A DNA stretch of 64,000 bases. It comes from an uncultured Thermoplasmatales archaeon. GTDB lineage: Archaea; Thermoplasmatota; E2; DHVEG-1. Location of the stretch: positions 1-64,000 of the forward strand of contig CAZWZY010000008.1 of NCBI GenBank assembly GCA_964638175.1. Direction: 5' to 3'. Shown one piece after another: positions 48,001 to 54,000 of this stretch. Position 1 is the first letter of the stretch; each line of letters opens with the position of its first letter. Made by a program: the position numbers.

Positions 48001-51000
48001 TAGTTATCACCACCGACCAAGGGCGAACCATGACGATATTAGATAATGTTGATGTCAAAATTGTCGATTCAGACACACGAGTATTTCCTTTTGTAACAGT
48101 ACCATCAAAAATTCATGTGACGGCGAGACCAGGGCTAGGCCAGCCATTATTAAAACCTTATGACGTCCATCTCGATCTTGATATTGTCGCTGACAATACC
48201 TATGAAAAAGTATGGAAGTTTCCTACCTATGTAGGTATGAAAGTGGGAAGAAGTACCGTTACCGGTACCCTTTCATGGTCTGATGAAGAGGGGGACTATG
48301 AAGTTGAATTAAATGGCATTGGTACGTCGTGGAGCATGAGCGCGCTGTTTTAAATTAGTGTACTTCCACAGTAGCATGATCAGCATCCAAGACAACGGTT
48401 GCCCCGTCTTTTATGGTGGTAATATCAACTTGATCAACGCAAGGAATGCCGGCAAGAATAACGCCAGTGGCTACGATCGTTTCAGTTTCTTTATTAATAA
48501 TCCCTAAAGGAGCAACACCATTTTTTTTCAGACCATAAATAACATATGAGCCGACAGTCGATCCTTTCCCGCAAGGAAATACCAAGATTTTATCGGTTAC
48601 TTTCTTACCTTCCAGAGGATGGCCTTTCTCGATGACAATACCTGTTTTTGCGTCAATGCCTCCATAAAATCCGATAGGTTCTGGCGAAACAATGGCTTCT
48701 CCCTTTACCTTTCCGGGGGAAATCATTCTTCCTTTCATTGCTGTCCCTCCACGAGATCATCAATATTAGCAAAACACACATCTTGTTTACAAAAACCAGG
48801 CAAATAGTTGGCTGCTTTTCCTGAATTTACTCCTGTTGTTTTATAGCCCATGTCCTCAATGGGAGACACCACCATACAGGTATCGGCGATCACACTTCCA
48901 CCTGCTTTTGCGATGATTTCATTATAACCCATTCGTTCCGCAGCTTCTTTAATCATTCGTGAGGTGCATATCCAAACTGGTTTTTTCAATCGTTTACCTT
49001 CAAGTTTTTCTGCCAGTGCGGAAATCTCACGAAGAGATGCATGCGGACAGCCAAAAATAACAATATCTGGTTTTTTCCCGGAGTTCAGTTTTTTGTAGGT
49101 TTCTGCAAGATCTTTTTTTGTAACCCGAATAGTTTCATTTCCCTTTGTTTCAACCAAGTCTGCTTCAGGAGTTAACCCTTCTACATGATATAAGGCAACC
49201 GCGCCAGAGGCAGCCATGGCTGCACCTAATGCTTTGAGTTGATCGGTATTTGCGTTTTTTATCCCAGTAAAATATGGTATGTTGTTTTTTACTTGTTTTC
49301 CAACATAGTACCCAAGCGCACCAAAATCAGCGTTGAAGGTTAACTCCGCATCAACAGCTACCTTGATTGTTGGCTGTCGGTTTTCCCATAAGTGAAGACC
49401 GTAATTAGGGGTAACTCCACAGATTGCCGCAGCGAGTGCAGATGGTCCACCTTCACGGTTTGTACGGGCGCCAATAACGCTGTTAGAAAAGGATACTGCC
49501 GAGGACTCTGACCAAGCAATGTGTTCTCGGAACCGTGGGAGATTACCCGCAAGATAGGGGGTGCAGGTTGACGTTACCACGATGCCCATTTTCTTGAATG
49601 CATCCATGATTCTCAATTGGTTTTTTGCAAAGTCCTTTGGGAATCCATACTCTTGCCAATTCTCTAAATCCATCCCTGCAGGATTAAGATAGGTAAGCAC
49701 TTGTACTTTTGCTCCCTTTGAGGCCATATCCTCCAAAAATTCCGTCCCAGGACCGCCAATGGATTTATATGATACGCCCGCAACTTGAACAGACCCTACA
49801 GGAATCATTTTATCTGCATTGTAAATTTCTCCTAAACGCACAAGAAGGCGGAACATACGCTCCATAACTTCTCCTTGCTCTCCGTTAAGAACGCTTTCTT
49901 CTTGTTTTGTTAAATACATGTTACTAACTCCTTGCAATTTTTTACTAGTTGATTGATTTCTTTTTGGGAGGCGTTATCAACATGAATACCGCCAATAGCG
50001 ACTGTGGTTGTGTGGTACTTAGCACATGCAGCCAATGCAATCGGTTTTAACACAACATCGTCGTAATGGCCCTCAAGTCGAATGACGTGGGGTTTTTTTC
50101 CAACCTCACAGAGAACCACGCCGCCAATATGAGATTTTTCTCCGCCCCCGAGAATGTAGAGAAGATGATCTCCTATCTTCTCTTGTTTAAGCCAGACAGT
50201 ATATTTTCCTTTACCCGCAGTAATCATCAAGATTCACTTTGGTATAGTGTACAATTTCATATTTACTCTTATCGATATCTGATGGTATGGTGGCGTCGAC
50301 CCCTACCTTTGTGGTACGGGTTTTCTTGCCAGGTTCATGTTTCCCTGAAGGATCAAGAGAGCTTCCTGGTTGATCTGGTTTGATGACAAGATCTTTGTGT
50401 CCTTGGAATCGGGTGGCAAGCGCCCATTCGAGAGCCAATGGACTATACACGTCTACGTCTTCATCAACGATCATGACATGTTTCATGCTTTTATGTCCTT
50501 GAAATGCTGCTTCAATTGCCTTTTTTGGGTCATCTGGATGTTTTTTCTTGATTTGGACGACGCCATGAAGCCAGGATCCCCCTCCCATTGTTACTAAAAC
50601 ATTTTTACATTCCGCTACTTTACTGACTTCATCATAGATCGTTGGTTCTTTGGGCATACCCATTAACATTTTATGTTCCAGACGGCCTGGGATTAATGCT
50701 TGATACATCGCATCTTTTCGGTGAGTAATACAGTCTACCACAAAGACAGGCTCTTGACGTTCAAAATCACGAGTTTCTGTCAGGTCAACAAATGGTCCTT
50801 CACGATCAAGGTCCTTGGTGAGTCGTCCTTCTATAACAAACTCAGATGCTGCGGGAACCTCTAGATTTTTCGTGACACATTTTACCATAGGTGCCGGATC
50901 AAGAGCGTTTCCTATGGAAAATTCATCTACATCGGACGGTGGACCGAGAGATGCAGCAATCATCGTTGCTACCGAATTACCAATACATACTGCCATTTCT

Positions 51001-54000
51001 AAGTCGCCGTCAAGCTTATCATACGTTGTTCGTGTTTGTCTGTTTTTGATAAGACGCGCAGTAAATTTGTTTTTCTCTATCTGCATAAGGCGGTGGTACG
51101 AAACGTTCCTTCCGGTGTCAGGATCTTTTATTGTAGAAACGGTAGCAGTTGCATATTTGCCGCCATCTCCCTTTAAATGAAAGAGTAAAGGGAGCATATC
51201 CAAATCAGGCTCTTTGATAACAACCTCTTGACACGGGGCGTTGGTAACCATTTGTGGTGGTTTTGGACGGCGAAGTGCCTCGACCAGTTTGAAGAGCAAT
51301 TGCTCTTTAGTGGTGCCAAGTCCCTCTGCAATGATATCTCTATTTGAAGTAATACCTGCAAAGACAGGGAAGTCGTATCCTTTGACGTTTTCAAAAATCA
51401 CTGGCTGTTCATTCAGTGAATAAATAACATTAGCCATTTCATACTTGAGAGAGACTTCTTTGGTAATACGAATAAGTTTATTTTCTTGTTCAAGTTTCGC
51501 AAGAAACTTGCGAAGCTTCATACGCTATGCCTCCTTTCTTGATGCTCCTACAACCGTTTTAATGGTTTGGAATCCTTCCTTTTCAATAGCGTTAGCAACC
51601 GTGTCTTGCAACTCTCTACCGGGAGTAAGCGCGATCATGTTGCCGCCGAGTCCCCCTCCAGTAAGTTTTGCACCAAGAGCGCCTGCGTCTCTGGCAAGTT
51701 TTACCATAAAATCAAGTTCGCGAGAGGAAACTTCGATTTGTTGGAGAAGTTTGTGGTTTTCATTCATGAGTTTGCCAACTTCCCCATAATCTTCCTCCTC
51801 AAATGCATCTTTTGCAAGGTAGGCGACATTTTCTGCACGATTAAAAATTGCTTTATATTTTTCGGGGTCTTTTTCTCTTCGTTCTCGAACACCAGCAACC
51901 GCAGCTTTGGTATTGGCGACTTTTCCGGTGTTTCCGATAACAATTTCTACCGGGGAATGAAGAGGGATCTGTTCAATGCCCTTCTCATCTCCTTTTTGAA
52001 ACCAGAGTAATCCACCGAAGGTTGATGCAGTGTTATCAACTCCAGAAGGGGTTCCATGATATCCCTTTTCACCTTCATAAGCAACATCATTGATTTCTTC
52101 ATCGGAAAGACCCATATCAAAATAATGTGAAAGTGCTCGCGCAATAGCCACGCATGACGCAGCACTGGCACCAATGCCACTTGCTGCATAGAGGTTTCCC
52201 TCAAGCGTGATTTTGATGCCGTTTTTCGATGGGTCGATATCCATTTTTGCCAGTATTCTCTTCAGAGAATCTTGTTGTTGTGCCACTTTTTCTTCTTTGT
52301 AGTTTGGAGTTGCTTTTCTGTTGTCTACCAGCTCAACCAGTGGTTTGTCGTACGGCTCTACCCGAGCAACTGTATAATTGCCAATCGCTGAAACAATCGA
52401 TGGTATGCCATAGACGACAAAGTGCTCATTAAATAAGATAGCTTTTCCAAAACCGATGCCCTCGCCCTTCATAACGATCACATAAGCTCTTCATCAAATT
52501 TTTTGTTGGAATACTGTAAATAGTATATGGTTTTTATGATTATTGGGAGCATAGTTGTTTAGAAAGGTATTTAATGCCATTATAAATAGATATCTCAGGG
52601 CAGTTGACCAAACATGGTGGAGGTAAATCAATTCTATACCTATGAATATTTACGAGATGTGAGCAGAAAAGTAGCGAATGCGTTTTGGGCATTACTCGAT
52701 TATCTCTCATGTAAAATGACAAAACTTGCGACCACCTATGAAAAGATTATTGGGGAAAAATATGAGAAGGAAAGCAAAACGTTTGATATTACCAATAGTC
52801 ACCATGTGCTTCATATTGGATGTGGATCTTATCCTGTGACTGCACTTACCCTTGCAAAAATGAACGGATCGGAAATTGTCGGTATTGACAATAATCAGAA
52901 AATAATCAGACAAGCAAACGAAATGGTGAGAAAAAGACAATTGGAGGATAGGGTAACCATTATCTATGGTGATGGAAGAAGCTACCCTGTTGATAGATTT
53001 GATACCATTATTATTTCTGGATGTTCATCACCAAAAATGCAAATATTAGGGCATGTACTCAGTACGGCGAAATCACAAAGTAAGATTATTGTACGGGATT
53101 TGGACATGAATACCAAAACGATCAGGGAATGTATCAACAATCATCAGGATGTTCGTTTGGTGAATACTCTTGGCAACTATCCTGTTACTCGGTTGGGGTG
53201 GCAATCGTTTTATCTTGTCAAAAAATAAGCCATTAGGCTGACGATGGTTTTGTTTCTGTTAATGATACTAAAAATCCTATAAAACTGACGAAAATATAGG
53301 TCACTACAAATCCTAACAACGAAAAAACAAACACGTGTTCTTCAGCAACACCAAAAAGTGTTGAAAATAGAACAATTGCCGTTAATTCTCGAGTCCCCAA
53401 ACCTGCAAAGGTAATGGGGAGATTTCCTGCCGTATTGGCAATAGGAAAGAGCAAAAGAAAATACAGATAGGGAATGCTGAGGTCCAGCGAGAGGACAATA
53501 AGATACTCTTGAGTAAACGTAAGAATCCAGACAATAACTCCCAAGACAACAGGAAAAATTAAGGCACGTATGCGGGGAAAATCAGTATAAAACGTCTCAA
53601 TAAACTGATAAAATTGAGATTTCCACCGTTTTGGTATGATGTATGAGATAAGAAGACGGAGCAGTTTTTCTCCCCGTTCTTGTTTAAGAAAGAAAAGAAT
53701 GATCGTTAACAGAATGGCAAGCCAAAGGAGTGTAACATACAGCAATTCGGGAAACTGAGAAACGATAAGGACAGCCCCAAGAAGCATCATCGCGTACAAT
53801 GAAAAAGAACGAAGAAACGTATCAATAAAGACGTTGATAAACAGTTTACCGTATGGTTCACCCGTTTTTTCTTTCATGTAGGGAACTTTGATGAGTTGCC
53901 CTAAGTAACCAGGAGTGATGATTCCATAGAAATAGCCGATCAGCATAATTTTGAGTGAGGAGAAAAATCCAAGAGAAATACGCTGTTCTCGTTGAATGAG

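What a model noticed while it worked through the whole genome (the two positions that open the first line are those of the whole stretch)
48355..52472. LpdD-type prFMN chaperone embedded in the archaeal mevalonate operon
A 105-aa LpdD/PAC-fold gene (g0877) sits between phosphomevalonate dehydratase and the prFMN-dependent anhydromevalonate-phosphate decarboxylase. I read it as the cofactor-delivery subunit that matures this decarboxylase. It would add a component to the archaeal mevalonate pathway, of use for heterologous expression.
Evidence so far: LpdD family in 92% of the family, 0% of the rest of the class; next to AcnX in 76, UbiD in 89 and mevalonate kinase in 79 of 117 order genomes. 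Search 164 found no paper.
(Added by a program. Inside this text positions count along the whole contig: contig position 1 is position 1 of the stretch shown here. "Call 12" and the like, gene names such as g00115 and contig names such as C1 are that model's own, and its searches are not shown. The text may have been shortened before it was handed on; [...] marks where a part breaks off. The agent that wrote the report below was given it as the finding of a first reader that could run no searches.)

Follow-up and report, generated by a model that had tools for sequence, protein, structure and literature searches.

The report
LpdD-type flavin carrier in mevalonate operon
A small gene overlapping the end of the decarboxylase gene in this archaeon's lipid-precursor (mevalonate) operon is a relative of bacterial LpdD, so it likely carries the prenylated-flavin cofactor to that enzyme, but only some archaeal lineages have it and the pathway is known to run without it.

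Summary
Observation confirmed. The operon reads MVK, UbiD, 105-aa gene, AcnX large, AcnX small. The small protein is LpdD family (PF21758 81 bits; model against LpdD TM 0.86, Z 16; Pba3/4 Z 9.8). It keeps LpdD's His-His-Asp metal site in 71 of 71 sequences. It is in 102 of 107 family genomes and 0 of 89 others in the class.

Added here: the gene overlaps the UbiD stop by 17 nt in 68 of 70 loci, while its AcnX junction is split in 21 of 80. It tracks one UbiD clade across two phyla. Distant relatives lie near UbiX, UbiD, IDI-2 or riboflavin kinase in 33 of 66 loci. Likely role: prFMNH2 carrier for the genome's only UbiD, the inferred anhydromevalonate-phosphate decarboxylase (about 0.7).

Against 'subunit that matures': G228 and G229 have this UbiD clade with no LpdD found, most archaea searched lack it, the M. 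mazei pathway works in E. coli without it, and LpdD has no shown catalytic role. I found no paper placing LpdD in this pathway. The scan noted this before on other genomes.

The parts
51525..52472 (-). mevalonate kinase (first gene of the operon; ATG at 52472, in-frame GTG at 52481)
   Evidence: TIGR00549 248 bits, cut-off 163; PF00288 and PF08544
50211..51521 (-). UbiD-family prFMN-dependent decarboxylase, the only one in the genome; inferred anhydromevalonate-phosphate decarboxylase (AMPD)
   Evidence: PF01977, PF20695, PF20696 and TIGR00148; single copy; no DMD/PMD found, IPK present
49910..50227 (-). 105-aa LpdD-family protein, likely prFMNH2 carrier; H33, H54 and D56 match LpdD H35, H61 and D63; its ATG lies 17 nt inside the end of ubiD
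   Evidence: PF21758 81 bits; profile to LpdD E 3e-8; model pLDDT 97, TM 0.86, Z 16.0; residues invariant in 71 of 71
48735..49919 (-). AcnX large subunit (phosphomevalonate dehydratase)
   Evidence: PF04412 539 bits
48355..48738 (-). AcnX small, swivel subunit (phosphomevalonate dehydratase)
   Evidence: PF01989 and NF003046 over cut-off

Best explanation
The 105-aa protein is an LpdD-family protein whose gene overlaps the genome's only ubiD; it likely binds reduced prenylated FMN and hands it to that UbiD, the inferred anhydromevalonate-phosphate decarboxylase, as a helpful but probably non-essential carrier. Shown: family, fold of the model, conserved His33/His54/Asp56, the 17-nt overlap, single-copy ubiD and ubiX, and ubiX on another contig behind GGGP synthase. 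Inferred: UbiX makes prFMNH2 elsewhere; an LpdD-like dimer binds it at the conserved loop and metal surface and raises loading of apo-UbiD when supply is low; UbiD itself or an unknown oxidant then matures the cofactor; the overlap couples translation of carrier and enzyme. The pair appears to have spread by operon transfer with one UbiD clade.
For: Family and fold: (LpdD Z 14.8-16.0, next family 9.8). The Mn ligands of LpdD (H35, H61, D63; H35A lost prFMNH2 binding, PMC10865409) align to H33, H54, D56, invariant in 71 of 71. Partner: ubiD directly upstream in 80 of 80 loci (78 within 60 nt); 17-nt overlap in 68 of 70. The AcnX junction also overlaps in this window but is split in 21 of 80 loci, often by truD. 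Same-order relatives keep MVK-UbiD-AcnX but have a different UbiD (41-47% identical) and no small gene. G027 has an AcnX inside the LpdD-linked clade, a foreign UbiD and no LpdD match. In the phylum of G197, 9 of 11 genomes with the 71-81% UbiD have the gene, against 0 of 117 with only other UbiDs. Distant relatives: UbiX or UbiD in 22 of 66 loci, 33 of 66 with IDI-2 and riboflavin kinase added; ubiD-ubiX-lpdD-tannase in C. butyricum.
Against: No binding or activity data for any archaeal member. Identity to LpdD is only 20-22%, the single-sequence match is weak (E 0.17), and the loop before the second His is five residues shorter. G228 and G229 have the same UbiD clade followed by ubiX and no LpdD match (completeness not given). 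Four loci hold both LpdD and an in-operon ubiX, so it does not simply replace a nearby ubiX. A start codon inside the ubiD frame itself resists separation, so part of the linkage is mechanical. 33 of 66 distant loci show no prFMN gene, 9 of them beside an AIR-synthase-like gene; many are short or near copies. LpdD lowered AnFdc1 activation to about 30% in vitro.
Confidence: 0.7

Rival explanations
1. It is a stable structural or activating subunit of this AMPD type (like VdcD for VdcC), or a folding helper for it, rather than a transient cofactor carrier.
For: Fixed 17-nt overlap suggests matched amounts; it tracks one UbiD clade; LpdD pulls down with E. coli UbiD (PMC10865409).
Against: G228 and G229 have the clade without it. 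Distant members sit by ubiX (18 of 66) more often than by ubiD (6 of 66), which fits cofactor supply better.
Confidence: 0.13
2. It is a passenger carried with a transferred operon: it may still bind prFMNH2 or Mn but gives the pathway little benefit.
For: Patchy range: 0 of 89 in the rest of the class, 4 of 259 Thermoplasmatota outside the family, 9 of 133 in a second phylum. It was lost or never taken in G228 and G229. Native LpdD has little effect on gallate decarboxylation.
Against: Kept in every family genome whose locus is complete, with third-position-biased change and 14 invariant residues.
Confidence: 0.08
3. It is a metal or Fe-S helper for the AcnX dehydratase downstream, using its His/Asp site.
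For: Directly upstream of AcnX large in 55 of 80 loci; invariant H33, H54, D56, H82 and a Cys in 67 of 71; G228 and G229, which lack it, also have a different AcnX.
Against: Separated from AcnX in 21 of 80 loci; G027 has the same AcnX clade without it; no AcnX was found in any of 66 distant loci.
Confidence: 0.05
4. It is a Pba3/Pba4 (PAC3/4)-like proteasome assembly chaperone.
For: Same fold (Z 7.8-9.8); the Pfam name; the genome has a proteasome.
Against: Much closer to LpdD (TM 0.86 against 0.55); proteasome genes lie on other contigs (C5, C24, C34); relatives occur in bacterial ubiD-ubiX operons.
Confidence: 0.04

Closest known systems
LpdD (lp_0272) of Lactobacillus plantarum; PDB 8PO5, 8PZO, 8PZH, 8P4W; Pfam PF21758; PMC10865409
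   Same: Same Pfam family and fold (TM 0.86, rmsd 1.9 A over 104 residues), same His-His-Asp metal site and glycine-histidine motifs, genetically tied to a UbiD/UbiX system.
   Different: 20-22% identity, shorter loop, 105 aa. Welded to ubiD rather than co-transcribed with ubiX. The client is an inferred AMPD of essential lipid synthesis, not gallate decarboxylase. No biochemistry.
Archaeal mevalonate pathway (MVK, PMDh/AcnX, AMPD, UbiX, IPK), as built from M. mazei MM_1524-1526, MM_1871, MM_1762, MM_1763 (PMC12547664)
   Same: All enzymes found in this genome; no DMD or PMD found.
   Different: An extra LpdD-type gene between AMPD and PMDh; a distinct UbiD clade (about 40% identical to most UbiDs in the second phylum searched).
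PhdC/YclD prFMN maturase (PMC13040415) and VdcD subunit
   Same: Small UbiD accessory proteins encoded beside their decarboxylase.
   Different: PhdC is an HpaC-like flavin-reductase fold that oxidises prFMN; VdcD is an integral subunit. Neither appeared in the sequence or fold searches.
Yeast Pba3-Pba4 and human PAC3/PAC4
   Same: Shared fold (Z 7.8-9.8 for Pba3/4 and PAC3).
   Different: 5-14% identity; no link to proteasome genes here.

Membership tests
LpdD family (PF21758) | Profile match above the curated cut-off | tested here: met
   81.2 bits against 27; family profile finds LpdD at E 3e-8 as the only clear PDB hit
LpdD family (PF21758) | LpdD fold | tested here: met
   Model pLDDT 97; TM 0.86; Z 16.0, rmsd 1.9 A, 104 aligned
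LpdD family (PF21758) | His35/His61/Asp63 metal site | tested here: met
   H33, H54, D56 align and are invariant in 71 of 71; metal binding itself not tested
LpdD family (PF21758) | Genetic link to ubiD or ubiX | tested here: met
   ubiD upstream in 80 of 80 loci; 17-nt overlap in 68 of 70
LpdD family (PF21758) | Binds reduced prFMN only and activates apo-UbiD | not testable with these tools
   Needs anaerobic biochemistry
LpdD family (PF21758) | Homodimer; contact with UbiD | not tested
Archaeal mevalonate pathway AMPD (the neighbour) | UbiD enzyme encoded with MVK and AcnX, with UbiX and IPK present and no DMD/PMD | tested here: met
   (genome 95% complete)
Archaeal mevalonate pathway AMPD (the neighbour) | Decarboxylates trans-anhydromevalonate phosphate | not testable with these tools
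   No assay; no characterised AMPD sequence was compared directly
PAC3/PAC4 proteasome chaperones | PF16093 profile match | tested here: inconclusive
   No match in the protein scan or genome, but the controls were silent too
PAC3/PAC4 proteasome chaperones | Binds proteasome alpha subunits | not testable with these tools
   Only indirect: proteasome genes are unlinked

The most novel reading that the evidence does not exclude
This UbiD clade is a carrier-dependent AMPD that needs its LpdD partner to become active in anoxic sediment archaea unless UbiX is made right beside it (as in G228 and G229). That would be the first LpdD with an essential job in core metabolism, a mobile AMPD-LpdD module, and a portable part for loading hard-to-activate UbiD enzymes.
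Probability: 0.25. Interest if true: 0.75.

Novelty: new variant of a known kind. Interest (0 to 1): 0.52.

Why it matters
How UbiD enzymes get and mature prFMN, above all in anaerobes, is open, and LpdD's physiological role is unclear even in its own host. Here an LpdD is fixed to a single-copy, probably essential decarboxylase, which gives a clean client for testing what LpdD does. Natural with/without pairs exist (this family against G228 and G229, and against sister families). It may also help engineering of the ATP-saving archaeal mevalonate pathway, although the published work points to the oxygen-sensitive dehydratase as the weak step there (PMC12547664). It does not change the pathway scheme for most archaea.

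Tried and rejected
Sequencing runs: no RNA holder listed. Promoter and terminator scan: only bacterial consensus types, 8 promoter-like sites against 14.9 expected; uninformative. Idea that the linked UbiD clade lost a His in the prFMN pocket and needs LpdD to compensate: the clade has an invariant Gln162 where HmfF and several other archaeal UbiDs have His, but LpdD-free sister clades also lack it (Asp, Asn or Gly), so it does not discriminate; that this His is a Mn ligand is recalled, and a look for it in PMC5818171 found nothing. Idea that LpdD stands in for a co-transcribed ubiX: fits G228/G229, but four loci have both and many genomes have neither arrangement. A hidden divergent homologue beside ubiD in sister families: none at E below 0.44 in 10 loci or below 0.2 in 14 more; a PAC4-like gene elsewhere in those genomes is not excluded. 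NCBIfam has no model for the small protein. The first UbiD tree is the quick tree, as the careful run did not finish; the trees are quick LG+G4 trees on subsets (30, 22 and 23 rows), unrooted, with no AU test, so direction of transfer is not shown. Literature: 'LpdD'+'mevalonate' 0 papers; 'LpdD'+'prFMN' 3 papers; 'LpdD'+'archaea' 3 listings, judged unrelated from titles and abstracts; Pfam-name search gave noise in the 20 of 61 listed. The supplement of PMC10865409 (Fig. S1 alignment) could not be read and might include archaeal homologues; subscription papers on AMPD are outside the library.
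Full report
What is there. The minus strand from 52472 to 48355 holds five tightly packed genes: mevalonate kinase, a UbiD decarboxylase, a 105-aa gene (49910-50227), and the large and small AcnX subunits. 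The genome has one UbiD and one UbiX over cut-off, on contig C1 directly behind a GGGP synthase. It has IPK next to a type-2 IDI-like gene on C14 and no DMD or PMD match over cut-off. So it uses the archaeal mevalonate pathway and this UbiD is the only candidate AMPD; that is inference from context, not assay. Record titles of the nearest relatives name uncultured Thermoplasmatota; that this is the MBG-D/Thermoprofundales group is my recall.

Family. The small protein scores 81 bits on PF21758. Alone it meets LpdD only weakly (E 0.17), but a 24-sequence profile finds LpdD at E 3e-8 as the only clear PDB hit. The model (pLDDT 97) matches LpdD at TM 0.83-0.86 and Z 14.8-16.0, and Pba3/4 or PAC3 at TM 0.57 or less and Z 9.8 or less. 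In PMC10865409 (I read parts 1-4 of 6: abstract, introduction, results, discussion, part of methods) LpdD binds reduced prFMN only, binds Mn through H35, H61 and D63, loses prFMNH2 binding as H35A, raises LpdC activity at basal UbiX and pulls down with E. coli UbiD. The matching H33, H54 and D56 are invariant in 71 of 71 archaeal sequences; in 32 distant representatives the counts are 32, 31 and 31 (Asp or Glu).

Range. PF21758 is in 102 of 107 family genomes plus the own genome and in 0 of 89 other genomes of the class, 46 of which have a UbiD match. The five family misses have no UbiD match or a truncated one. It is in 4 of 259 sampled Thermoplasmatota outside the family and 9 of 133 genomes in the phylum of the Theionarchaea genome G197. 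One control genome, Methanosarcina acetivorans, has a match whose context I did not see.

Which neighbour is the partner. In the best 80 of 135 GTDB loci, ubiD is upstream in all 80, AcnX large is directly downstream in 55, further off in 21 and not in view in 4; inserts are often truD. Of 70 loci with both frames complete, 68 have a 17-nt overlap of ubiD and the small gene. Part of this is mechanical, since the start codon lies inside ubiD, but the AcnX junction overlaps too in this window (10 nt) and does break. Same-order and same-class relatives keep ubiD, some in MVK-UbiD-AcnX order, with no small gene; their UbiD is 41-47% identical to ours, while UbiDs with the small gene in other lineages are 69-79% identical. 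The 71 UbiDs with the gene form one group apart from the 8 without it (quick tree). In the second phylum 9 of 11 genomes with this UbiD type have the gene, and 0 of 117 with only other types. Kin are not independent, so these counts stand for a few events.

Two natural mosaics limit the claim. G027 has an AcnX inside the LpdD-linked clade, a different UbiD and no LpdD match, so this AcnX does not need it. G228 and G229 have the LpdD-linked UbiD type followed directly by ubiX and a different AcnX, and no LpdD match, so this UbiD does not strictly need it either (completeness of G228 and G229 not given). Four loci have both LpdD and ubiX in the operon.

The wider family. With a 10-sequence alignment of distant members I fetched 66 metagenome loci. 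UbiX is in 18, UbiD in 6, either in 22; with type-2 IDI (8) and riboflavin kinase (7), 33 of 66 hold a prFMN-supply gene. A random 10-kb stretch of the own genome would hold ubiD or ubiX about 1% of the time (rough). The other 33 show none; 9 lie behind an AIR-synthase-like gene. Only 20 loci have 2.5 kb on both sides (7 with ubiD or ubiX), and several are near copies. No AcnX or MVK was found in any of the 66. Of 10 plasmid records with a relative I opened two: C. butyricum has ubiD-ubiX-lpdD-tannase, and Desulfobaculum has it with no annotated Ubi gene nearby.

Mechanism. Most likely (0.7) the protein binds prFMNH2 made by the distant UbiX and delivers it to apo-AMPD, improving loading when supply is low. 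Maturation is probably left to UbiD or an unknown oxidant: PMC13040415 (abstract and passages) says no direct catalytic role was found for LpdD. Rivals are a fixed subunit (0.13), a passenger (0.08), an AcnX helper (0.05) and a proteasome chaperone (0.04; proteasome genes are on other contigs).

Known or new. LpdD and the pathway are both known; their union was not found in print. 'LpdD' with 'mevalonate' gave 0 papers, 'LpdD' with 'prFMN' 3 and 'LpdD' with 'archaea' 3 unrelated listings. A lipid review has no LpdD (passages), and a survey of archaeal isoprenoid genes has no 'chaperone' or 'UbiX' (passages). The LpdD supplement could not be read. The M. mazei genes work in E. coli with no LpdD in the plasmid list (PMC12547664, part 1 of 4), and E. 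coli has no LpdD. Earlier reports of this scan reached the same reading on other genomes, and noted a PAC4-like gene beside archaeal ubiD in Bathyarchaeia; I did not test the latter. Verdict: a real, well-supported new setting for a known chaperone type, limited to some lineages, function untested. Interest 0.52.

Noticed in passing
L168:624-5250 (also L146, L147, L148, L155, L160, L166, L171, L184): Probably bacterial operon: LpdD-like, type-2 IDI, CTP-riboflavin-kinase/HAD fusion, unknown 187-aa protein, UbiX, Nudix-like gene. It looks like a complete prFMN-supply cassette (DMAPP, FMN, DMAP, prenyltransferase, carrier); the 187-aa protein recurs in 4 loci and is a candidate new prFMN factor.
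   Followed up: partly
L144, L149, L161, L162, L165, L169, L170, L172, L173: A group of LpdD-family genes lies behind an sll0787/methanogenesis-marker-2-like AIR-synthase gene with no Ubi gene in view; it may have another role.
   Followed up: partly
G000:C1:138117-139412 (L026:754-2049): The genome's only ubiX follows GGGP synthase and an inositol-phosphatase-like gene, tying prFMN synthesis to ether-lipid genes.
   Followed up: partly
L118:2072-5307 and L119:321-4849 (G229, G228): Mosaic mevalonate operons: UbiD of the LpdD-linked clade set among ubiX and AcnX genes like those of relatives with another UbiD, and no LpdD; natural controls.
   Followed up: yes
window 50214-51521 (UbiD residue 162): Invariant Gln where HmfF and several other archaeal UbiDs have His; sister clades have Asp, Asn or Gly there.
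   Followed up: partly
protein P0162 (298 aa): LpdD-like domain at the C-terminus (residues 189-279) of a protein whose first part looks like a class II aldolase by eye; not scanned.
   Followed up: no
protein P0273, cluster of P0143: LpdD-family member in a Jordarchaeales (Asgard) genome; context not seen.
   Followed up: no
window 41970-41990 region, ORF 41629-42321: The ORF translation holds a run of unknown residues, so the assembly has an N stretch inside this ORF; exact place not read.
   Followed up: no
G000:C5:41134-41595: A third proteasome-subunit match with two stops inside; possibly broken or frameshifted.
   Followed up: no
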